Notes under the pieces: model-generated
Seen by the model: the letters and a program-made list of their open reading frames with translations, nothing else
Databases searched by the model: none
Told to the model about the DNA's origin: nothing
Program-made: the position numbers and the translations under genes
Source: an uncultured virus (IMG/VR IMGVR_UViG_3300032266_000637)
Taxonomy: Duplodnaviria > Heunggongvirae > Uroviricota > Caudoviricetes
Virus record (IMG/VR): IMGVR_UViG_3300032266_000637
Length of the DNA: 64,000 bases
Strand: one strand, 5' to 3'
Shown: piece after piece, positions 4,310 through 57,491 of the stretch
Position numbering within the stretch: position 1 is the first letter of the stretch
How the letters are laid out: each line of letters starts with the position of its first letter

Positions 4310-4990
4310 ATGTCTATTGAAATAATTGACGAAAACGGCGTAACACAACAACCATTAGAGCAATGGAACTATTTTCCATCAACGCTCTATGTAGTCCAAA
4401 AGCCTGAGTTTTTAGAGGCGGTTAAACAAGTCTCCGGCGAGCTTCTTGCAAAAAGAAAAGAAGAGATGGGTAAGGTAAATGAGATCTACCCAGTTGTAAT
4501 GACAGATAGCTTTTACGACGACCCCAAGGCCAAAGATTTTTCAGAGTATGTTGGTCAGACTGCTTGGAATATCTTGCAGGGTCAGGGTTACAGTATGGAG
4601 CAGTTTAACACCCAGTTTACTGAGATGTGGGTACAAGAGCACTACAAGCACTCCCTCATGGAGCAGCATGTTCATGGCTACGGATCACAGCTAGTTGGCT
4701 TTTACTTTTTAGACTGCCCAGAAAACTGTTCACGGTTAGTTATCCATGACCCAAGACCTGGCAAGGTACAAGGCAATTTGCCAGAGACTGATCAAACTAT
4801 TGCAACGTACGGCAGCAATATGATTAACTTTGAGCCAAAGCCAGGTATGTTAGTGTTTGCTAACTCATGGCTACCACACTCGTTTGGTCGTCATGCCAGC
4901 GACAAGCCAATTAAGTTTGTGCACTTTAATATTACAGTAAACTATGCACCGACCTTGGCAGTATGTCAGGCACCTGCAGAGATTATTTGA
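4310..4990 (+). CDS. putative 2OG-Fe(II) oxygenase
   Basis: HVH...GFYFL...HDPRP...PKPGMLVFANSWLPH pattern of phage 2OG-Fe(II) oxygenases. Confidence 0.7.
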   Translation: MSIEIIDENGVTQQPLEQWNYFPSTLYVVQKPEFLEAVKQVSGELLAKRKEEMGKVNEIYPVVMTDSFYDDPKAKDFSEYVGQTAWNILQGQGYSMEQFNTQFTEMWVQEHYKHSLMEQHVHGYGSQLVGFYFLDCPENCSRLVIHDPRPGKVQGNLPETDQTIATYGSNMINFEPKPGMLVFANSWLPHSFGRHASDKPIKFVHFNITVNYAPTLAVCQAPAEII

Positions 4991-32638: not shown

Positions 32639-33031
32639 TTATTCTTTTGCGGCTTTTAAGTCCTTGATTAAATTGGAAACTGCTCCTGCAAAATCAATTG
32701 ACACATCGGCTTTAATATCTTGCTTGATTTCCATGCGTTCTTTGTAGTCTGCTGGGAACTGGGCACGGGTTGCAATCTCGAATAAACGGGTGTTATAGGT
32801 GCGATTGTTGAGGTTGGCTAGGGCTTCCCTTTCCCACCATGCTTGCGCCTCTACAACGGCTCTATCCATTGCTTCAGCGAAGTCTGGCTTCTCTTTCTTC
32901 CAGCGGTCGGCAGTCTGTTTAGAAATGCCTAGTGACGAAAACATAATTTTTTGTGACGCACCAGTTTTACCTAGCTCTACCACCACATCGCACATCTCTG
33001 GTTTATATTTGGAATTTGCTGGCGACGCCAT
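32639..33031 (-). CDS. terS: putative terminase small subunit (HTH DNA-packaging protein)
   Basis: SKYKPEMCD...G.S......LGISKQT..RWKKEKPDFAEA...AQAWWE pattern. Confidence 0.65.
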   Translation of the reverse strand: MASPANSKYKPEMCDVVVELGKTGASQKIMFSSLGISKQTADRWKKEKPDFAEAMDRAVVEAQAWWEREALANLNNRTYNTRLFEIATRAQFPADYKERMEIKQDIKADVSIDFAGAVSNLIKDLKAAKE

Positions 33032-33288
33032 TAGCACTTCCACCTTTTAAAGGCGGCGGCTTTGCGTGTAGGCTTGCCGTTCTCGTCCTTCATAGGGCCA
33101 GGAACGCCAGACATTCTTGCGCAAAATGATTTCTTACGGGAGCCACCTTCGGGTTGCGGAGCTTTTAAATTAGAGCCAGTTGCCGCGTTATATTTAGCAC
33201 GACCCTTGGCGGTAAGTCCAGCACCTTGGGACACGGGTAACTTCTCGCCACGACCAATAGATAGGGATGGGTTCTTTTTAGTTGCCAT
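33031..33288 (-). CDS. small basic phage protein
   Basis: GLTAKGRAKYN..TGSNLKAP...RKKSFCARM...RWKC; TAATG coupling. Confidence 0.7.
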   Translation of the reverse strand: MATKKNPSLSIGRGEKLPVSQGAGLTAKGRAKYNAATGSNLKAPQPEGGSRKKSFCARMSGVPGPMKDENGKPTRKAAAFKRWKC

Positions 33289-42504: not shown

Positions 42505-42852
42505 TTAGTCTTCCTTGAAATATTGGTATAAGTCCACTACATCTTGGCGATCATCGTCCCAGTTATCTTCATCACCATAATCACCACGGGTAGCTCGCAT
42601 TCTATCTTCATGCCTAAACCTTGGTTCAATATCCCACCAAGCTTGGGATGCCTCCAAGTATTCAAACCATTCATCATTCCTAATAAACTGGCAATGATTT
42701 TCGCCAACTAATTGGATACTATCTAAATACTGCCGATGGGGTATGTAAGGTTTCTTAAAGTTACCAGCCGTTTTAACAAGCTTTACTTCATCTCTTGCTC
42801 GGATAAATCGGTTGTATGCTCTTTGTTGCTCTTCGGTTAGATTAAGTTTCAT
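42505..42852 (-). CDS. hypothetical protein
   Basis: 115 aa, overlaps sigma stop; no sigma4 resemblance. Confidence 0.55.
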   Translation of the reverse strand: MKLNLTEEQQRAYNRFIRARDEVKLVKTAGNFKKPYIPHRQYLDSIQLVGENHCQFIRNDEWFEYLEASQAWWDIEPRFRHEDRMRATRGDYGDEDNWDDDRQDVVDLYQYFKED

Positions 42853-43417
42853 ACCCTTCTTCTTTTAAATGATCAGTATCAAAAGCCTCTAAACTAATTG
42901 GTTCTTTGTTTAGTATAGAATTAATATGATCGATACGCTCGGTTTCAATGCCCATCTTATCAGCCAGTTCTTTGTTGCTTGGTTCTCTGCCTAGCTCTTG
43001 AGATAGGATTCTTTCATTGTACTTTATTCTACGCAGTTCTTCAGTAATATTAACTGGCAATCGAATAATGTTTTTAGTATTAGCAACACCTCGATTAACC
43101 TCAGTCAGAATTACTTTTCGTGCATAGGATATAAAGCGGATGTTACCTTGGGGTTTCCACTTCCTAGCAGCCATTATCAAAGCCTCGTTACCAAAGCCCA
43201 ATAAATCTTCCATGTCCACACCAGAGTGATGCCAGGTCGGTGTGTTTTTAATGGTAGTTACTACAAAGCGTAGGTTATGAGTCACCAGTTCTTCAAGTGC
43301 AAGCTCATCGCCTTGGGCAATAAGGTCGGCCAGAGTTCGCTCTTCTTCTCGTGTAAGGGGTTTAATACCATATAACGATCTTACATAATCAGAGAGAGCG
43401 TTCTTCCTAATTTTCAT
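42842..43417 (-). CDS. sigma70-family factor lacking region 4
   Basis: Region 1.2 (YVRSL..IKPLTREEE), 2 (LVTHNLRFVV, MEDLL..GN.AL, RFISYA), 3 (IRLPVN, LSQELGREPS..ELA), stops just after PISLE. Confidence 0.85.
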   Translation of the reverse strand: MKIRKNALSDYVRSLYGIKPLTREEERTLADLIAQGDELALEELVTHNLRFVVTTIKNTPTWHHSGVDMEDLLGFGNEALIMAARKWKPQGNIRFISYARKVILTEVNRGVANTKNIIRLPVNITEELRRIKYNERILSQELGREPSNKELADKMGIETERIDHINSILNKEPISLEAFDTDHLKEEGYET

Positions 43418-43725: not shown

Positions 43726-46700
43726 TCTATTATCCTAAATGACCAAGCTATTGGTCGGTCAAAGTTCCAGTTTTGTGCATCCTTCTCACTATGAAAATCC
43801 CAAATCTTGCCATAGCAATCAATGACTACCTTATCGCCAGGTTTTAGATCGTCAATTTTGACAGCCTTGTGACCAGCATTGGGGCAAGCCCATTGTTTTT
43901 TATACGGGTGTTTTAGCATATAAGGTTCTGTGTCAATTAGTGTCCATTCGTTTCTAATCATATTGCCTCCTCATACTGTTCAATAGTAATACCAATTGAG
44001 TCACAAAAATCTGATAACAGATCGCCTCTTTCCATTGCTGATAATAACATATCACCATTGCCAATAAGTTTACGATCCATAAGATATTCTGCGTATCGAT
44101 CTTCCAAACTTTTGGTTGGTGGGTTGACCAGTTTGGTAATAAAGCTTTCTACAAATTGTTGTTCCCAGTTCATAAAACCTCCGTAAATATTAAAGTTAGC
44201 ACAATGCTGCTGAAGATCATACCAAAAATCAAAAACCAATTTACCGCATATAGATTGGTTTGTCCATAAAAGCAAGTCAAAAAGATTAAGCCAAAAATGA
44301 ATGTTAATAGTAAGTTCATACTGCCTCCTCTTCTGAATTCAATAAAATAACATGAGAATCATCGTACACAATCTCGCCAAGAAAAGTATCGGGCATAAGA
44401 TAAGAATCATAATTATTGGCGATCATATAATCATCAGCCTCTTCTTCTGTCATACGTGGTTCTACATGGTCAATGCTATGTACGATCACCATTTCGGTAG
44501 AATCGTACCCTTTAACAAACGCACCATGAGTCATGCGACCAAACCAAACGGCAGTCTTTTTCATACTGTTTCCTCCCACAAATTTAATATATCTTTTCGA
44601 AACTGCTCAGATGTGTAATCACCATTTGCCATTTCAACTAACAAACCAAGCAAAGCCTCTTTACTGTCGTGGTCACTACCGACCCAATGTTGCACCATCA
44701 TTTGATTAATTCTTTTCATATTAGTTCTCCAAGTGGATAGTTAATGTTACTGGGTTGTAAATCTCATTCTCTTCTAACCAGAGATGGCAATCAGAGGCGG
44801 TTTTGAAGTGAATTTGGTGATCCAAAACCTGGCCAGCCTCGGGCTGCTCAGCTTGTTTAATAAACTCTTTGCAACAATTCACTAATATTTCTTGGGCATC
44901 ATCGTAATGGATCTGCCCCTCGTCCCATTGTTCGTGAATGTCATTGACCGAAAAGTGTAAGCTATCGATTGTGTATAAATTCATACTACCTCCTTAAATT
45001 TAACTTCAAATGTACAAAAGTCTTCGTCACATTTTAAACAAGCAAACTGGTAACCCTCGCTTACCTTGTTTGGTTCTTGGGTAAGCAAACCACTACAATG
45101 TTTGCAGAATGGTTTGTAGTTTTTCATTTGATAATGCTCCTATCTCTATAAGGTTTATTTAATTGATACTCGTCACACTCGATGCCATGTTGATCCCCAA
45201 ACATAAACCAATCGGGTTCAAGATTACATTGTTTAGTGTGAATACGCAATGCCTCTAATACTGTTTCAATAGCAGTATCGTCACTTTTACTATATGCCTC
45301 GAATGAGAAATTGCGACTGTCATAATACGCACGATAGATTTTCATGATAGTTTCTCCGTTAAGTTACCCTCGTTCCACATCGCTCTTGCAAAACTGATAA
45401 TGTCATCACTTACTGGGAAATCATAACCCTCGGCATGATGCTCGATTACATCGATGGGGCATTCTGTTTCTGTTGGGAAATTGTCACCCCACAATTCACC
45501 CCATGGTTTGTCGTTGGTTTTTTCTACCCAGTAATCACAAACACCAACTTCCATTGAACGCATTACCATAGCATTCATGCAATCCAAGGACAAGTAACCC
45601 CAATTGGATAGTTCATTACGAACATCCAAAACATTCTTGTTGGGGTTGTTTGCCATATATTCCTTGATATAGCTATCATCTACTTCAAATACCATTTTGA
45701 TTTTCATAACATTCTCCTTGTTGAAGACTCAATATTACTGCCACTACAATAAAAGTAAATAGGTAGAAACCCTGGTCCCGGGACCAGGGATTACCCCTAT
45801 TGATTCTCAAGGCTGCCTTGCACTTCTATTTCTGCGACTCGCCAATCTTTGTGGTTAAAATCTTCTAAGTAACCCATTTCAACTGCTAGTTCACAATCCA
45901 TAATGAAATCTTGCAGTTCAAAGAATGCATCATCTTTAGTATCGTAAAAAACTGGAGGTTCACAAGTGTCCTCCCAGTCACCATTTGCAAGTAAGGTTTG
46001 GATTTGCCATTTTTTCATTTGATCCTCCGCACCCAATGGTTGCCAGTAATGCAAGAAAATTCAGCATAGTCATTAACATCAAGTGATTTCACCATGTCAA
46101 TTTCTACTTCACCATACCCACGATCTTCAGTAAAGAAATCCTCATCGTGGTATGCAAGCATGGATCTATTGTCCGCATCACGATAGCCATCACCCCAAAA
46201 ACATTCAAATAGTTTCATCAAATACTCCATAGTCGTTTTCTACATCCATGATCTGATTGAAATCAAAATCATAGTCCAGTTTGCCACCTACTACTTTCCA
46301 ATCTCCTTGGAAGAATGGGTACGATTCAACATAGCCACCATCTTGGCTATCATCTGCGTCCATATCCAAAAAGATCAATTCACGAACAGTTTCCATACTG
46401 TCACGATCGCCCAGTTTGAGATTTACCCAAACTTCACAATCGTATTTTTGATTAAATATTGCATATGTATTGCTCATCATTTGCTCCCTTTAATTAATAA
46501 TTCAACAAATAATTTAGCATGAGTAGATTGCTCAAATGTAGCTACCCAATACTTTCGTGTTGCCTCTTCGATCCTAAATACTTTCCAAGTAAAATCGGGA
46601 TCTTTTACTATTTCAAAATTCATGCTTTGCTCCCTTGTTTTAGTTAACTACTGACTCCAACAAAAACCACTCTATAGAATGGTTTTTAGTAGGTCAATAA

Positions 46701-47503
46701 TGGTTTACCCTAATCCTGGCCGTGGTATAAAAACAACACTTAGGTTAGGGGTTGATCAATCCCTCATCCAGTAACTGGCGAAGGGTACGCCCAAAAAACC
46801 CTTGTAACCCATAACCTATACGACTGTCATGCAAGTGTTGCCAAGCTTGTAATACTTGCTCTTCACTATCGCATTCGATAAACCCCTCTGCAATTCCAAC
46901 TGCTTGATAGCTATCCATTTATATCCTCCATTTGTTTTAACTGCTCAATTGTGTGAGATTTTAAAAACTTTTTTACTTCATTTTTGGTTTTGAATAAACC
47001 TAGTGTTTTGGGGTTAATTTGATTTTCGTCCATCATCAAATCTATCATTACACAAAAACGATAGTAAGCATCATCGCTAGGGTTATAGCATTCACTTTTA
47101 TTTTTGTTTTTGTAATCGCAATAAACTAGGATATATTCATGCTCCCCTATTTCTTTACCGATACAAGGGCAAGCATCATTTTTATATGAGAAATCAGAAA
47201 AACCCTCAATTACTGGGAGGGTATCGTCATACCTAGGAAATGCATATTCAATTAGTGACATTTTTATGCTCCCTTTAATAAGTTTTTTAATTCTTGCTTT
47301 AATACTTTGGCATCGTTACCCCTAAAGGTTGATGCATTAGCTAAAAAATACATAATGACACTTCGAGCATCATCATAGATATATTTTGAATGAATGTTAT
47401 CTAGATACTCCATTGCATCTAAATATGGTTTAGCTCCGAAATAGGGTTTTGCCCAAACCCGTTTTATATCTCTTGCAATACTACTGATTGATCTTTTTTC
47501 CAT
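43722..47503 (-). other. cluster of small early-type hypothetical CDS
   Basis: Many co-oriented, mostly acidic ORFs of about 45-120 aa with GGAG RBS and ATGA overlaps, incl. 46745-46918 not in track. Confidence 0.65.
46669..46697 (-). promoter_or_regulatory. putative host sigma70 early promoter
   Basis: TTGACC-N17-TAGAGT, preceded by an AGGGTAAACC box. Confidence 0.45.
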
Positions 47504-47578
47504 TTGCTTATGCTCCCTTGTTTACTGGTTAAAAAAGTGTTGCTATACATACATTTTAATAGTTTGCCTAGTATTTTG

Positions 47579-47827
47579 GTAAACTAAAAACCCTAATAGG
47601 GTTAACCCTGATAAATGGGGGGCAAAATGCCTGTTGAGAATGATTATCAATTAAGCATACCCCTAAAATCGATTTAAACGGGTTTTGGAGGGTTTTGATG
47701 GGTTTGCTCATAAGTGCATTGGGAGGGTGTCGATCGTTTAACTGGGGACGATCTGATCGTTAGGGTTTACCCTTACCGGGATGTTGTTTTGCAGCAACAC
47801 TTTGCTTGTCAATAGGTAAAAACCCTG
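47579..47827. repeat. regulatory cassette copy 1 (diverged direct repeat of 48625-48861)
   Basis: Same ordered elements: AGGGTWWACCCT, Fur-like box, GATCGT-N10-ACGATC, AGGGTTTACCCT, TGTTG-N8-CAACA, GTCAATAGGT. Confidence 0.85.
47635..47649. promoter_or_regulatory. Fur box
   Basis: TGAGAAT-G-ATTATCA, one mismatch to the 7-1-7 core TGATAAT-N-ATTATCA. Confidence 0.65.
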
Positions 47828-47862
47828 TGTGTTGTTTTCATACCACGGCCAGGTTTTTAGGT

Positions 47863-47889
47863 AAAAAAAAACCCTCCAATTGGAGGGTT
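47863..47889 (-). terminator. intrinsic terminator after gp88-like gene
   Basis: AACCCTCC-AATT-GGAGGGTT followed by T run on minus strand. Confidence 0.7.
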
Positions 47890-47909
47890 ATAGGGTTTTA
47901 CCTAATTGC

Positions 47910-48548
47910 TTAGTGATATTTATAGGAAATATTAGGAATTGATTTATCCCAACAATTGCGACAATCTAAGCATTTTCCGCCTTGCTTATAACTAGGGCAT
48001 TCTGTGCCAATTGCACTATTAACTAAATGTACTGTGGATGTATTGGAAAATTTTGGAGGGTTACTATCCCTTTTTGTTGCAGATACTCTCACAATTAAAT
48101 TAGTAGGAAAATCCCCAAAAGTATCTTGATATTGCTTTACTAAATTACTCTCTTTAGTGGGTATCCAAAATTTAGTATTAGGGCATTGCTCCGCAACACT
48201 CACAATATTAAGCAAGTGTTGGAATGATTGAATATCTCCGCTATCATGCCATCTAAAATATTGCATTTGTTGCTTATTGATAATAAATACCATAGCGTCA
48301 ATCCATTGTGGATTTGTAAGGGTTTGATATCTCCGCTCATGAGCAATATCTATTGTTTTGGCATAGCGTACATAATTACCCTTAAGAGCGTAACAATTAT
48401 GACAAACTGTACCCTCTATTTTTGCAAGCTTTGATCCAGTATTACAACGCTTTGCTGATATTGAATAGCTAGAACATGGCATTTTAGATGGAGCGGATAA
48501 CCCCCCAACAATTTCTAAAGCTTGTTTAATGGTTTTGATTTGTTGCAT
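47910..48548 (-). CDS. gp88-like protein (Cys-rich, radical-SAM-like)
   Basis: SKMPC, VCHNCYA, YFRWHDSGD, CP.....GKCLDCRNCW; GGAGG RBS. Confidence 0.8.
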   Translation of the reverse strand: MQQIKTIKQALEIVGGLSAPSKMPCSSYSISAKRCNTGSKLAKIEGTVCHNCYALKGNYVRYAKTIDIAHERRYQTLTNPQWIDAMVFIINKQQMQYFRWHDSGDIQSFQHLLNIVSVAEQCPNTKFWIPTKESNLVKQYQDTFGDFPTNLIVRVSATKRDSNPPKFSNTSTVHLVNSAIGTECPSYKQGGKCLDCRNCWDKSIPNISYKYH

Positions 48549-48624
48549 ACATCCTCCAATTGTTTAGTTAATTAGGATATTGCTCACCTAATACTATAAT
48601 TTTAAAGCTTTGTGCAATAAATTA

Positions 48625-48861
48625 GTAAACTAAAAACCCTAATAGGGTAAACCCTAGGTTTTGCCTGTTGATAATCATTCTCATTTGACTATGCCCCTAA
48701 AAACCATTTAAACGGGTTTTGGAGGGTTTTACTGGTTTTGCTTACAAGTGCATTAGAGGGTTAGTGATCGTTTAATATGGCACGATCTGAGACTTAGGGT
48801 TTACCCTAGGCCAGGTGTTGTGTGAATACAACAGTCACTTGTCAATAGGTGTTTACCCTAA
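48625..48861. repeat. regulatory cassette copy 2
   Basis: See copy 1; palindromic elements conserved, spacers diverged. Confidence 0.85.
48669..48683. promoter_or_regulatory. Fur box
   Basis: TGATAAT-C-ATTCTCA, one mismatch to the 7-1-7 core. Confidence 0.65.
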
Positions 48862-49000
48862 TTGCTGTTTAAGTGTCGTATATTTGCAACATGGTCGGTT
48901 TGCCTAAATATTAAGCAGATTAGCCCTATACCTCTCGCACCCGCATAAGTCAATAGGTACATTCCCTGATAGGGTAAACCCTGATTGGGCAATTTGCTTA

Positions 49001-49284
49001 TGCACCAACTTGGTGCTGGTCCAATGCACCAGATTGGTGCGCCTGGTTAGTGAGTACTTACTAACTTGCCCCATTGTTAGCGTCCACTAACTTGCTGCAT
49101 TGCACAACTTACCAATGCACCAGATTGGTGCTGGTCCAAAGTGAGTGAGTGCTTACTTACCAGGTGCACCAGATTGGTGCGCTTGGCAATGTGAGTAAGT
49201 GCTAACTTACCTAATGCACCAAGTTGGTGCGGCCGGTAAGTTAGTGAGTGCTTACTTCAATCAGGTGAGTGAGTACTTACTAAC
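49001..49284. repeat. array of alternating palindromes: 5 NtrC-like and 5-6 SlmA-like sites
   Basis: TGCACCA-N3-TGGTGCK at 49001, 49025, 49116, 49165, 49215; GTKAGTRAGTRCTWACTWAC-type at 49046, 49141, 49191, 49240, 49265. Confidence 0.8.
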
Positions 49285-49468
49285 TTGTCAGGTTAGAGCG
49301 TTGTTATTCTGCAACAAGGCAAAGGGGTGTTGTTTTTGCGCCACACCACCACTTTACGACTCCCTGAGTTTTGGGGCGGGGAGGCTCCAACCAAACCCAA
49401 GGTCTTGTCGATTTCCTATACATGTTTTTTGGATATGTATATTTTTTTTAATTTTTTATACATATTGA

Positions 49469-49805
49469 CTGACTTGTATAGTAATAAGACAGGATACGAT
49501 TTTTATATCGCGGCGCACCATTTTTGCTCTAAGTTTTTGTTTTATAAGGAAAAGTACTGACTTGTATAGTAATAAGGTGACAGGGTACAAAAACGCATCC
49601 TGTCTCCAAAACGCTTGTAAGTTATTGTTCTATAAGGGCTGTATAGTAATAAGACAGGGTATCCATAGTATTTCTTTATTTTTTATTTTTAATTTAAAAA
49701 AATAAAATAACATATACAGCATAAACTTGGAATTACTGTGGATACTATGGATACCCTGCCTCCTTCTATACAAGTTTGTGGATTTAGGGCGCAACTTGTA
49801 TAGAA
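49469..49805. repeat. origin-like element copy B
   Basis: TGTATAGTAATAAG x3; 20-bp inverted repeat (1 mismatch) 49652-49671/49742-49761 around an AT tract; 13-bp inverted repeat 49764-49776/49793-49805. Confidence 0.65.
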
Positions 49806-50083: not shown

Positions 50084-50354
50084 GAACTATGTTTACCAGA
50101 TCAAGGGCATTATGGAACTGCCCAACAAAGAAATCGGTGCGATCCGAGTTGCTATATGCTCAGTTGATATACTTGACTATGTGGATGTGCCAGCAGCCAT
50201 ATTTAACAAAGAGCTTCTTGCCTACCTCAAGTATCGATTGGCAGTAAACAACTATGTCGATGTGCGTAAGTTTCCAGACAAGATCACCAACCAGCTTAGA
50301 ACCCCACTGAATACCTATCTGGATAACTGGGTGTTGTCTTCCTCCTTCAAGTAA
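50049..50354 (+). CDS. hypothetical protein
   Basis: Overlaps both neighbours; start may be the downstream MSKNY. Confidence 0.55.
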   Translation: MKDCEIKKPMSKNYVYQIKGIMELPNKEIGAIRVAICSVDILDYVDVPAAIFNKELLAYLKYRLAVNNYVDVRKFPDKITNQLRTPLNTYLDNWVLSSSFK

Positions 50355-51334
50355 TGGCGATTGCTGGAGATACCCCCGTGCCGGTTCCTAGCGGCTGGAC
50401 GATTGCCTCCCAGCTAAAACCTGGTGACTATGTGTACGGCTCGGATGGACTGCCGCAGAAAGTCTACACTACCCACACCTACACCCCCGCCCAGATGTAT
50501 TTGGTCACGATGGGGGACGGTGTTGCCATTGAAACGGATCAGCATACCCTCCTGCCGATCAGCACCATCAACAACCGCATCGTAGAGAACAAGTACAAAG
50601 GTAAACGCAAGCGCAGAGCCGTCCAGAAGTTTGCCACACCGACCGAACTGCTCGAGCATGGGCTCAAAGGGACGAACAGGAACTGGCTGTTCTCGATCAC
50701 TAACACAGCCCCAGTGCAGTTCCCTCATGAAGACCACCCTGTACCCCCGTTCATTGCGGGGATGTGGATGACAAGACGCAACCATCAGAGTCACTTCTGC
50801 TTAAGGGAAGAGGTTTTGGAGTATGCCCAGAAAGAAATCCGTTCTTGTGGCTGGGCGTTTGTGATGTTGCGTAAGAATTTACTAGAATTGCGCCCCAACA
50901 TACGCAATTCGTTCTTAACTCGCTACCCTATCATCCCCACCACACTGCCAGTGGACTATTATTTCGGGTCAATTGAGCAACGGATTGACCTTTTGCGGGG
51001 ATTATTGGTTACAAACCCTAGCGCTTACAACAAAAAGACTGAAGAATTTCTGATTCACAGCAGAGATTTGCGTCATTTGATTAAATTGCAAGGAATTTGT
51101 GAATCATTGGGCATGAAAACCCAAGTTTTTGAGAATAAAATCTCTTTCACGCATAGATTACGTTTTAAAACCAACATCGTTCTGCTTCCGTGGCAAAAAG
51201 TTGAACCCAATTTGAAAAATGCGGGAAGAAGATCGATTACTGGTGTGGAGCCAATCCGTAGTTCGGCATCAATCCACATCACCACAGAAAAGCCCTTCGT
51301 AGTAGGGCAGGGATTTTTACCAATATGGCATTAA
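50354..51334 (+). CDS. free-standing degenerate intein-like protein (Hint + LAGLIDADG remnants)
   Basis: AIAGDTPVPVPSGW..LKPGDYVYGSDG.P..V block A; PPFIAGMWM and SIEQRIDLLRGLL endonuclease blocks; FVVGQGFLPIWH end. Confidence 0.75.
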   Translation: MAIAGDTPVPVPSGWTIASQLKPGDYVYGSDGLPQKVYTTHTYTPAQMYLVTMGDGVAIETDQHTLLPISTINNRIVENKYKGKRKRRAVQKFATPTELLEHGLKGTNRNWLFSITNTAPVQFPHEDHPVPPFIAGMWMTRRNHQSHFCLREEVLEYAQKEIRSCGWAFVMLRKNLLELRPNIRNSFLTRYPIIPTTLPVDYYFGSIEQRIDLLRGLLVTNPSAYNKKTEEFLIHSRDLRHLIKLQGICESLGMKTQVFENKISFTHRLRFKTNIVLLPWQKVEPNLKNAGRRSITGVEPIRSSASIHITTEKPFVVGQGFLPIWH

Positions 51335-52770
51335 CTAAACTTCAAGAAACGATTCTTGACAAATTTGCGCAAGCAAACAAGCATTGGCCAAAGGATCAGC
51401 TCGATCTAGCGTTATGGCGAGTGCGATGGGAGCTCATGGCACTAGATCATCAAAGGGAACCAGAAGATGGTGAGTACAACACGATGCTGATGCTCGCAGG
51501 TCGTGGTGCTGGTAAGACTTACACAGCGTCTAACTGGATTGGAATTCGAGCGTCTCTTTATAACGGCACTCGTTGGTTGGTAACAGCCCCCACTTCAAAC
51601 GATATTAGAGCAACTTGCTTTGAGGGTGACTCGGGACTGATGAACATCATCCCTCATACGCTCATTGACACCTACAACAAATCGCTGTTTGAAATCCACC
51701 TAAAAAACGGCTCGATCATTCAAGGTATACCTGGTTCAGAACCAGAACGGTATCGTGGTAAACAGTTCCATGGTGCGTGGTTTGACGAGTTGGCGGCGTT
51801 TGACTACCTAGACGATGCATGGGATCAAGCGCAGTTCACTCTGCGTCTACGGGACAGCCGTATCAAGCGAGTCCAGCAGATTGTTACCACCACCCCCAAA
51901 CCAAAAGAGCTCATCGTTGATCTGAACGAGGGTAAGGTAGGGGGTGATGTGTATGTGGTGAACGCCAGCTCGTACGACAACCGAGAGAATCTGTCTGAGT
52001 CGTTCTTCAACGCACTAGAGACATACGAGGGCACCGACTTAGGTAAGCAAGAGATCTATGGTGCGATCCTTGACCCCGAGGATGCGGGTATTGTCAAGCG
52101 TAAGTGGTTGAAGATGTGGCCAGCCAAACAAGCCACGCCAATTCTTGAGTATGTGATTGCCAGCTACGACCCAGCAACCAGTGAGAAGACGACTAACGAC
52201 CCGACTGCTTGCGAAGTGTTCGGTATCTTTGAGCACCCAGACAAAGGCACTTGTGTTATGTTACTGGACGCATGGGATACGCACATGTCTTACCCCGAGT
52301 TGCGTAAGAAAGTGATCAGCGATTTTAAAGAAGTGGTGTACGGATCAGACAACGACTTCGCTAAAGGGCGAAAGGCTGACCTCATACTGATGGAAGATAA
52401 GTCCGCTGGTATTTCACTGATCCAAGAGCTCCAAGGCTCGGGTGTACCAGTGCGAGGATACAACCCCGGCAAAGCGGATAAGGTGCAGCGATTGAACATT
52501 GTGGCACCGCTCATTGCTAAAGGGAAAATTTACATTCCAGAAGATCCAGACATCCCCGGCGAATTTGCACCATGGGCAAAACGACTCATTAGGCAAGTCT
52601 GCTCGTTCCCAGAGGCGGGTGGGCATGATGACTATGTGGATGCCCTATCACAAGCACTGAGGGTGCTCAGAGACTCTGGTTGGATCCAGCTTGACATTCT
52701 GCCAGCAAGAGACTATGGTTACTCAGATGATGAGAAAGCCAAGCAACGGTACAACCCCTATGCAGCATAG
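51325..52770 (+). CDS. terL: terminase large subunit
   Basis: AGRGAGKT Walker A, AWFDE Walker B, VTTTPK, SYDPA, MEDKSAG, HDDYVDA. Confidence 0.95.
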   Translation: MALTKLQETILDKFAQANKHWPKDQLDLALWRVRWELMALDHQREPEDGEYNTMLMLAGRGAGKTYTASNWIGIRASLYNGTRWLVTAPTSNDIRATCFEGDSGLMNIIPHTLIDTYNKSLFEIHLKNGSIIQGIPGSEPERYRGKQFHGAWFDELAAFDYLDDAWDQAQFTLRLRDSRIKRVQQIVTTTPKPKELIVDLNEGKVGGDVYVVNASSYDNRENLSESFFNALETYEGTDLGKQEIYGAILDPEDAGIVKRKWLKMWPAKQATPILEYVIASYDPATSEKTTNDPTACEVFGIFEHPDKGTCVMLLDAWDTHMSYPELRKKVISDFKEVVYGSDNDFAKGRKADLILMEDKSAGISLIQELQGSGVPVRGYNPGKADKVQRLNIVAPLIAKGKIYIPEDPDIPGEFAPWAKRLIRQVCSFPEAGGHDDYVDALSQALRVLRDSGWIQLDILPARDYGYSDDEKAKQRYNPYAA

Positions 52771-57053: not shown

Positions 57054-57491
57054 TTGTTTGATTTAAAACAAAATGAAGAACCAGATTTACGAACAGAGCA
57101 GGAATGCTTTCCAGACGTAGATCCAGGTGTAGAAATACTGGGTGATCGAGTACTTGTGCAGTTACGCAGAGAAAAAACCACCAGTAAAGGCGGTATCTTC
57201 TTAGTTGAAGAAACCAGACAGACGTTACGTTTTAACGAAACGGTAGCTAAAGTAATCAGCATAGGTCCATTGGCTTACAAGAGCCCACAAGATCTAACTC
57301 CTTGGGTAGAAGGCCCTTGGTGTCAAATTGGTGACTTAGTTCGTACGATTAAGTACGGCGGCGATCGATTTGTGTTGCAACCAGACGACGATGGTGCTCC
57401 AGTAGTGTTTATTACACTGCAAGCACGAGAAGTGATCTCTAAGATCAAATCGTTCGAGGCGGCACAGAAAATGAAAGCGTTTGTAGATTAA
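57054..57491 (+). CDS. groES: GroES-like co-chaperonin
   Basis: LGDRVLV....EKTTSKGGIFL...VISIGP...GDLV...KYGG; TTG start with AGGAG. Confidence 0.85.
   Translation: MFDLKQNEEPDLRTEQECFPDVDPGVEILGDRVLVQLRREKTTSKGGIFLVEETRQTLRFNETVAKVISIGPLAYKSPQDLTPWVEGPWCQIGDLVRTIKYGGDRFVLQPDDDGAPVVFITLQAREVISKIKSFEAAQKMKAFVD

What the first reader, a model, noticed from the sequence alone, without database searches (positions are those of the whole stretch)
47579..49345. Overall model: a host transcription-factor landing pad/decoy region at the early-late divergence point
Seen: about 1.1 kb of non-coding DNA densely tiled with at least six distinct palindrome families (Fur-like, NtrC-like, SlmA-like, TGTTG-N8-CAACA, AGGGTWWACCCT, GATCGT-N10-ACGATC), plus single TGC-N11-GCA (48901) and TTGCTGCATTGCACAA (49092) sites. 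Inference: the DNA itself is the effector. It could reprogram iron, nitrogen, carbon and division control by titration as the genome amplifies, or coat the first-injected end with host proteins.
Basis: inference. Interest (0 to 1): 0.8.

Follow-up and report, generated by a model that had tools for sequence, protein, structure and literature searches.

The report
Phage array of host-protein docking sites
A lake-type phage keeps, beside its DNA-packaging genes, a tightly tiled row of near-perfect binding sites for bacterial proteins it does not encode, above all the cell-division blocker SlmA, so it may stop its host dividing with DNA alone; binding and effect are untested.

Summary
The stretch is two copies of one ~330-bp early-gene cassette around a GP88 gene, plus a separate ~400-bp array (48950-49345). 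That array holds 5 SlmA-type, 5 NtrC-type and 1 PhaR-type sites, 22-27 bp apart. SlmA, NtrC, PhaR and Fur assignments are well supported. The SlmA sites match the published long consensus at flank positions I did not search for. The other three motifs mark glnA/amtB, phasin/phaR and TonB genes in candidate betaproteobacterial hosts. Of 32 distinct relatives, 30 carry SlmA sites in this zone (74 sites against 1 in 374 kb of flank), in reshuffled order. Paired SlmA sites also lie upstream of terminase in about ten unrelated phage lineages. Titration is a weak unifying model, because DNA sites switch SlmA on. Best reading: a host-protein landing pad whose SlmA core blocks FtsZ rings over amplifying phage DNA, at the presumed packaging end. 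Host, genome termini and binding are not shown.

The parts
47264..47503 (-). 79-aa early ORF directly downstream of cassette A
   Evidence: phrog_13953; seen in relatives at the same place
47545..47890 (-). Cassette A: putative leftward early promoter (-10 at 47553-47558, -35 at 47577-47582) with upstream protein sites
   Evidence: one search lists it at 9 of 12, but the region has fewer promoter-like hits than shuffles (19 vs 25.2), so the promoter is inferred; duplicate of cassette B
47590..47609 (.). Box A tandem pair next to the -35; binder unidentified, probably a host response regulator
   Evidence: intergenic in candidate hosts
47635..47649 (.). Fur-type box
   Evidence: same 15-mer lies upstream of TonB and a TonB-dependent receptor in G025
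47655..47760 (.). Phased T-tract element (tracts at 47673, 47683, 47693, 47703) that includes the N10 palindrome 47732-47753; bent or wrapped DNA, possibly a gyrase site
   Evidence: periodicity test inconclusive; N10 not supported as a host regulator site
47762..47847 (.). Box A (47762), N8 site (47782), Box A variant (47808), N8-like site (47830)
47870..47889 (-). Terminator-like hairpin after the GP88 gene
47910..48548 (-). GP88-family gene (212 aa) between the two cassettes
   Evidence: PF17338, E 2.4e-24
48590..48870 (-). Cassette B: -10 at about 48599, Box A pair 48636-48655, Fur box 48669-48683, phased element 48689-48790 with N10 48766-48787, Box A 48796, N8 48816, Box A variant 48841
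48900..48917 (.). Single T-N11-A dyad (LysR-type by recalled rule); binder not tested
48932..48947 (.). Conserved left landmark of the tile array
   Evidence: found at the same place in most relatives
48949..48982 (.). Box A variant and Box A opening the tile array
49001..49230 (.). Five NtrC-type sites (49001, 49025, 49116, 49165, 49215)
   Evidence: motif lies upstream of glnA and torF-amtB in candidate hosts; ntrC in 5 of 5 genomes
49046..49284 (.). Five SlmA-binding-site (SBS) cores (49050, 49145, 49195, 49244, 49269) with extended flanks, plus a degenerate site at 49076
   Evidence: consensus from PMC3020112 and PMC4423959
49092..49107 (.). PhaR-type site (imperfect here; up to 6 good copies in relatives)
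49299..49345 (.). Two N8-like sites closing the array; the last is conserved in position in many relatives
49373..49388 (+). G-rich right landmark; presumed packaging-start signal (inferred, not mapped)
   Evidence: similar G-run upstream of the small terminase in cultured PaP2 and DSL-LC05
49440..49770 (.). AT-rich stretch with three clade-specific direct repeats (49475, 49563, 49640): candidate small-terminase or origin sites, distinct from the host-type array
   Evidence: different repeat words at this place in other relatives
50354..52770 (+). Intein-like ORF (50354-51334) and terminase large subunit (51325-52770), start of the late operon

Best explanation
The region is a landing pad for host DNA-binding proteins, in two parts. 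(1) Cassettes A and B are duplicated early-promoter modules with an upstream Box A pair and a Fur box, probably read by host RNA polymerase and a host activator. (2) The tile array 48950-49345 packs optimal sites for SlmA, NtrC and PhaR end to end, next to the presumed packaging start. Its conserved core is SlmA. Each site would bind a SlmA dimer of dimers, which is the active FtsZ antagonist. As the phage DNA amplifies, clusters of five sites would spread active SlmA through the cell and block Z-ring assembly, as multicopy tandem-SBS plasmids do in E. coli. NtrC, PhaR and Fur tiles are exchangeable fillers that make the segment a continuous protein coat. Shown: the sequences, their conservation and turnover, their match to host regulons, their position. 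Inferred: the host, binding, the genome end, the division block.
For: SBS core matches the published 12-bp consensus. Flanks not in my pattern match the 24-bp SBScons: the commonest base at -5, -3, -2 and 0 (91, 112, 106, 132 of 148 strand-symmetrised rows) is the published base. 30 of 32 distinct arrays carry SBS: 74 in 39.8 kb vs 1 in 374 kb. The window has 5 strict sites in 231 bp, against 3-5 per candidate-host chromosome and 7 in E. coli K-12. Candidate hosts encode SlmA over the family cut-off (5 of 5) with a recognition helix identical to a solved SlmA. Their extended sites are 102 vs 48 control and origin-proximal. Paired SBS recur in about ten terminase groups below 35% identity; 60 of 79 such loci have a terminase, always downstream, and 44 of the 60 have a G-run within 50 bp of the last site. 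Spacings are stereotyped: NtrC-SlmA 22.5/26.5 bp in 28 of 55 pairs, PhaR-SlmA 18.5/22.5 in 29 of 70. Multicopy tandem SBS block division (PMC3573117). SlmA plus FtsZ recruit SBS DNA to membranes in vitro (PMC7468209).
Against: No binding data. The host link is weak: one relative is co-binned in a betaproteobacterial MAG that holds at least three such phage contigs. Three clade members keep an array without strict SBS (L053, L083, complete genome G043), so SlmA is dispensable for the array. The strict core is not enriched in hosts (20 vs 42 control) and only mildly terminus-poor (5 of 20 in the middle 40%). The plasmid block in PMC3573117 was shown at about 4x native SlmA. A division block does not need the sites beside the terminase, and that position may only reflect where non-coding DNA is. 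NtrC and PhaR counts are not significantly anticorrelated (rho -0.23, p 0.2). The promoters have no statistical support.
Confidence: 0.5

Rival explanations
1. End cap or anchor. The array coats DNA next to the packaging cut with any tight-binding host protein. This would shield a free end (the first-entering end, or the unpackaged side of a pac cut) from exonucleases, ratchet it into the cell, or tether it to membrane or PHA granules. Which regulator binds is secondary.
For: The array is bounded by conserved landmarks and ends at the G-run before the terminase operon. Tiles are exchanged freely and arrays without SBS exist. Paired NtrC sites lie upstream of terminase in 64 of 64 loci with a terminase hit, of 78 examined. 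The record of the nearest cultured relative (Caulobacter phage RW, 40.6% TerL) repeats 2,940 bp and ends in the non-coding gap upstream of its terminase genes.
Against: Termini not mapped; contig ends do not stack at one base. Outside this clade SlmA sites mostly stand without NtrC or PhaR sites, which points to a SlmA-specific gain. RecBCD-type enzymes evict bound proteins (recalled).
Confidence: 0.27
2. Nutrient-sensing control region. NtrC, Fur, PhaR and the Box A factor regulate the early promoters and tie phage development to nitrogen, iron and carbon status.
For: Box A pairs abut the putative -35 of both cassettes, with a Fur box about 25 bp further upstream. SlmA can act as an activator in V. 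cholerae (10.1101/141812). Sigma-54-type boxes were seen by eye in two relatives; rpoN is in 3 of 5 candidate hosts.
Against: The tile array is 400-700 bp from the nearest putative promoter. Order and content are shuffled between close relatives, which suits occupancy better than regulatory logic. No integrase or repressor was found among the scanned ORFs. It probably holds for cassettes A and B only.
Confidence: 0.12
3. Multi-regulon decoy. Amplified phage DNA titrates Fur, PhaR, NtrC and the Box A factor and reprograms host metabolism.
For: The sites are as good as or better than the host's best: none of 5 hosts has a perfect NtrC-pattern match, while the window has five. Multicopy Fur boxes titrate Fur (recalled FURTA assay). 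PhaR loss would free phasin genes (inference).
Against: A decoy needs neither fixed spacing nor a fixed place. SlmA, the best-conserved tile, is activated, not drained. NtrC titration should hurt nitrogen supply (inference). Fur boxes occur in only 12 of 32 arrays.
Confidence: 0.09
4. The repeats are sites for phage proteins (small terminase, initiator), and the likeness to host sites is chance.
For: Repeats upstream of terminase genes are often terminase sites (recalled: lambda cosB, P1 pac).
Against: Four independent motifs each match a host regulon. The same SBS recurs beside terminases under 35% identical. Clade-specific repeats, the expected terminase sites, lie separately at 49475-49661.
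Confidence: 0.02

Closest known systems
SlmA-binding sites (SBS) of E. coli nucleoid occlusion, and laboratory pUC-2xSBS plasmids (PMC3020112, PMC3573117, PMC4423959; passages read)
   Same: Same 12-bp core and same extended flanks; tandem copies on DNA that becomes multicopy
   Different: Chromosomal SBS are dispersed, outside promoters and mostly imperfect (24-52 per chromosome). Here five near-perfect sites sit in 231 bp of phage DNA, interleaved with NtrC and PhaR sites
Phage FtsZ inhibitors such as lambda Kil (PMC3961180; search listing and start of abstract only) and T7 Gp0.4 (recalled)
   Same: Proposed outcome: block of host Z-ring assembly during infection
   Different: Those are phage proteins; here no protein is encoded and a host inhibitor would be switched on by phage DNA
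Host-factor sites on phage DNA: IHF site in lambda cos, LexA box of CTX phage, Fur box of the stx1 prophage promoter (all recalled)
   Same: Phage DNA borrows a host DNA-binding protein, in lambda next to the packaging cut
   Different: Single sites with one factor each; not a tile of optimal sites for four or more unrelated regulators with free turnover
Transcription-factor decoy arrays (synthetic yeast arrays, PMC3322331, search listing only; FURTA assay, recalled)
   Same: Repeated high-affinity sites on amplified DNA
   Different: Synthetic, one factor, acting by titration; this array is natural, multi-factor and fixed in position

Membership tests
SlmA-binding site | 12-bp palindromic core with fixed positions 1, 2, 4, 5 | tested here: met
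   5 of 5 window sites keep these positions
SlmA-binding site | Extended flanks for dimer-of-dimers binding (SBScons) | tested here: met
   74 clade sites; unsearched flank positions match the published oligonucleotide
SlmA-binding site | Host encodes SlmA with the same recognition helix | tested here: inconclusive
   Met in 5 of 5 candidate genomes, but the true host is not established
SlmA-binding site | Motif is terminus-poor on the host chromosome | tested here: inconclusive
   Extended pattern: 1 of 25 sites in the middle 40% of 7 apparently colinear chromosomes, many orthologous (hand count). Strict core: 5 of 20
SlmA-binding site | SlmA binds and FtsZ assembly is inhibited | not testable with these tools
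   needs EMSA and cell assays
NtrC-binding site | Dyad lies upstream of glnA and amtB in hosts that encode NtrC | tested here: met
   38 vs 7 control in 5 genomes. Of 8 loci fetched: 2 glnA, 1 torF-amtB, 1 other intergenic, 4 in ORFs. ntrC in 5 of 5
NtrC enhancer (UAS) | A sigma-54 promoter within reach of the sites | not tested
   no systematic scan was completed; boxes seen by eye only in L042 and L077
PhaR-binding site | Motif lies upstream of phasin and phaR genes | tested here: met
   74 vs 10 control. Of 14 loci fetched: 5 phasin, 1 phaR. The window's single copy has 2 mismatches
Fur box | 7-1-7 dyad upstream of iron-uptake genes | tested here: met
   19 vs 1 control. Of 7 loci: 2 TonB/receptor, 4 orthologous DUF6662 operons, 1 HiPIP/rubrerythrin
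Host regulator site (Box A) | Enriched and intergenic in host chromosomes | tested here: inconclusive
   101 vs 66 control in 40 genomes without G002 (hand sum); 7 of 8 fetched loci lie between real genes; binder not identified
Host regulator site (N8, N10) | Enriched and intergenic in host chromosomes | tested here: not met
   N8: 11 vs 28 control in 41 genomes (also 71). N10: 7 vs 6, 4 of 4 in ORFs. The true host may differ
Strong gyrase site (Mu SGS type) | 130-bp motif with two arms of 10.75-bp GC periodicity (PMC6379681, passages) | tested here: inconclusive
   One arm is periodic at 9-10 bp in both cassettes, the other is not; the left arm of Mu itself did not pass
pac, cos or terminal repeat | Virion DNA ends map at the locus | not testable with these tools
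   only assembled contigs were available

The most novel reading that the evidence does not exclude
Many unrelated freshwater phages have converged on a protein-free host-takeover device: tandem optimal SlmA sites beside the packaging locus that turn the host's own nucleoid-occlusion factor against its division ring. In this clade the device has grown into a modular tile of SlmA, NtrC, PhaR and Fur sites that wraps a genome end in host proteins.
Probability: 0.5. Interest if true: 0.9.

Novelty: categorically new. Interest (0 to 1): 0.8.

Why it matters
Known phage division blocks are proteins. A DNA-only block would be a new class of host takeover that gene-centred annotation cannot see. The motif sets are also a host fingerprint for uncultured phages (slmA, ntrC, phaR, fur), and they give optimal sites for regulators of uncultured freshwater bacteria, including an unidentified Box A factor. 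The central claim can be tested in laboratory E. coli with one plasmid and a slmA mutant.

Tried and rejected
No whole genome is held for the window. BLASTN of the region against cultured phage records found nothing useful. Eight cultured or annotated TerL relatives (DSL-LC05, two Ralstonia phages, Tiera, PaP2, RW, two Manatee Spring phages) have no SBS cluster, so none could lend mapped ends to an SBS array. Termini: no raw-read run and no RNA holder were listed. Four contig sets showed no stacked ends, and run X1 may be the source of this DNA. Contig starts of relatives do not stack. The 100-bp end repeat of G043 looks like an assembly overlap. The paper on RW gives no termini in the passages and section read. 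Small ORFs overlapping the array (49199-49468, 49327-49560) have no Pfam match and were rejected as genes. N10 as a regulator dyad was rejected; it is part of the phased element. NtrC-PhaR trade-off not significant. Gyrase-site test inconclusive. Identity of the Box A binder was not found in print; a FixJ/NarL-family regulator is a recalled guess. The TerL tree is the quick version only, with long-branch warnings; SBS label 5 changes vs 6.8 shuffled, so independent origins are likely but not shown. A scan for further host motifs (sigma-54, IclR, FNR, LexA and others) and a flank table for SBS outside this clade were not completed, so those questions stay open. Literature searches found no report of SBS clusters or multi-regulator arrays in phages; the library lacks most subscription papers. 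No supplements were read.

Full report
Setting. The window is most of a tailed phage genome: DNA polymerase A, B12-type ribonucleotide reductase, SNF2 helicase, D5 primase and an RpoD-like sigma fragment on the minus strand; terminase, portal, capsid, an SU10-type adaptor and lysozyme on the plus strand. The finding lies where the two arms diverge. The nearest cultured terminase is Caulobacter phage RW at 40.6%. IMG/VR holds 566 related stretches, of which the best 80 were fetched.

Observation. The anatomy is simpler than six independent families. Cassette A (47545-47890) and cassette B (48590-48870) are one module duplicated around a GP88 gene. Each has, reading away from its gene: a -10 box with a poor -35, a Box A pair, a Fur box, a phased T-tract element containing the N10 dyad, Box A, an N8 site and a Box A variant. 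The promoter call has no statistical support. Array C (48950-49345) is different: NtrC-, SlmA- and PhaR-type sites follow each other at 22-27 bp between two conserved landmarks. Beyond the G-rich right landmark lie AT-rich, clade-specific repeats and then the late operon.

Conservation and turnover. Of 55 loci with enough upstream DNA, 32 had distinct arrays. In the 1.3-kb zone (39.8 kb in all) against 374 kb of flank: SlmA 74 vs 1 (30 of 32 loci), NtrC 71 vs 0 (21 of 32), PhaR 61 vs 2 (21 of 32), Fur 14 vs 8 (12 of 32), Box A 42 vs 6 (19 of 32). A de novo palindrome count returned the same families at the top. Order and number change between close relatives while spacings are kept: NtrC-SlmA 22.5 or 26.5 bp in 28 of 55 neighbour pairs, PhaR-SlmA 18.5 or 22.5 in 29 of 70, PhaR-PhaR 15 in 11 of 16. 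These loci are kin, so the counts are not independent events. L053, L083 and the complete genome G043 have arrays of NtrC, Fur and Box A without strict SBS. Contigs from co-occurring populations show unit gains and losses in array C and one joint that skips cassette A with GP88 (these may come from related phages).

Are they host sites? One relative is binned in a betaproteobacterial MAG, G002. That bin holds at least three such phage contigs, so it is only a lead. Its relatives are mostly 1.4-2.8 Mb genomes; Polynucleobacter is my recalled guess and was not tested. In five complete-looking genomes the NtrC pattern is 38 vs 7 control and marks glnA and torF-amtB (3 of 8 loci fetched), and ntrC is present in 5 of 5. 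The PhaR pattern, taken from the phage arrays, is 74 vs 10 and marks phasin genes and phaR (6 of 14 loci fetched). The Fur pattern is 19 vs 1 and marks TonB systems; the window's own 15-mer occurs there unchanged. Box A is modestly enriched (101 vs 66, hand sum) and mostly intergenic, before GNAT, TctC and dehydrogenase genes, binder unknown. N8 and N10 fail this test. No TetR, Fur, NtrC or PhaR family protein was found among the window ORFs scanned; the window may miss a few kb of the genome.

SlmA. The core equals the 12-bp consensus of PMC3020112 (passages). More telling, the flanks of 74 phage sites, which my pattern left free, agree with the 24-bp consensus oligonucleotide of PMC4423959 (passages) at every informative position. 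That is the site of a dimer of dimers, the form that disassembles FtsZ. All five candidate hosts encode SlmA with an identical recognition helix. The strict core is rare in them (3-5 each, below a control of 6-12; 6 of 6 fetched inside ORFs) and in E. coli (7 vs 5). The extended pattern is 102 vs 48 in 27 genomes and origin-proximal, 1 of 25 in the middle 40% (hand count, partly orthologous). One phage genome thus carries as many strict sites in 231 bp as a whole host chromosome.

Beyond this clade. Sixty have a terminase within about 3 kb, always downstream of the cluster; 9 of the 60 belong to this clade and 27 to one other group; 44 have a G-run within 50 bp of the last site. The terminases form ten groups at a 35% identity cut. 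Outside this clade NtrC and PhaR sites are rare beside the SBS. Paired NtrC sites are mostly clade-specific: 59 of 78 loci, upstream of terminase in 64 of 64 with a hit. Cultured relatives keep the G-run but no SBS cluster. The main confound is that this gap is often the only long non-coding stretch, although hugging the G-run is tighter than that requires.

Mechanism. Multicopy plasmids with tandem SBS block division through dispersed SlmA-SBS complexes, shown there at about four times native SlmA (PMC3573117, passages). SlmA is in excess over its chromosomal sites (300-400 copies vs 24-52 sites; PMC4423959), and with FtsZ it draws SBS DNA to membranes (PMC7468209, abstract and section 8). 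Phage amplification would reproduce that plasmid experiment. I therefore put a SlmA gain of function first (0.5), an end cap or anchor second (0.27), promoter control third (0.12; likely true for cassettes A and B), titration fourth (0.09) and phage-protein sites last (0.02). The first two are not exclusive. That host proteins bind the array at all I put near 0.9. The end-cap reading rests on position and on the RW record, which repeats 2,940 bp and ends in the gap upstream of its terminase genes; RW's gene layout differs, so this is weak.

Novelty. Searches found no paper on SBS clusters or multi-regulator tiles in phage DNA. Single host-factor sites on phages and protein inhibitors of FtsZ are known (mostly recalled). 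Earlier notes of this scan report SlmA-type sites in other phages and one similar array; they are unchecked AI notes and not independent support. New here are the host-regulon check for NtrC, PhaR and Fur, the rejection of N8 and N10, the stereotyped spacing, and the link to terminase and the G-run across lineages. Verdict: real, conserved, very probably a docking array for host proteins; function untested; interest 0.8.

Noticed in passing
window 42842-43417 (-): RpoD-like sigma factor of 191 aa with regions 1.2 and 3 but no region 4 match; could read -10-only phage promoters
   Followed up: no
window 50354-51334 (+): Free-standing intein-like ORF overlapping the terminase start, matching the intein parts of other terminases; kept across the clade at 26-54% identity
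   Followed up: partly
window 46690-46745: Partial third cassette in inverted orientation (Box A half and N8-like site; 33-nt arm 88% complementary to 47824-47856)
   Followed up: no
window 47655-47760 and 48689-48790; similar elements in L160, L164, L192, L201, L206: About 90-bp element with T-tracts every 10 bp, in either orientation and in unrelated phages; resembles one arm of the Mu strong gyrase site by eye
   Followed up: partly
L042 and L077, array zone: Sigma-54-type -24/-12 boxes seen by eye among the tiles; L046 and L083 carry a further dyad of IclR type (recalled)
   Followed up: no
window 47910-48548 and relatives: The gene after cassette B is swapped between distant GP88-like alleles in close relatives, and GP88 genes sit beside SBS clusters in unrelated phages
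   Followed up: no
G002 contigs C27, C42, C85: A betaproteobacterial MAG holds at least three contigs of this phage type, which inflates its size and Box A count
   Followed up: partly
MK929790.1 1-2940 and 59423-62362: Caulobacter phage RW record has a 2,940-bp terminal redundancy not mentioned in the passages read
   Followed up: partly
L159 4001-4050; L199 4001-4062: SBS-like tandem repeats with no terminase nearby, one in a GC-rich phage and one in a 957-kb contig; may be unrelated
   Followed up: no
L215 and L216: A 5.5-kb contig with the same array inverted at both ends; probably an amplification artefact
   Followed up: no
window 57054-57491, 4310-4990, 33031-33288: GroES-like gene, 2OG-Fe(II) oxygenase and DUF6321 gene
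   Followed up: no
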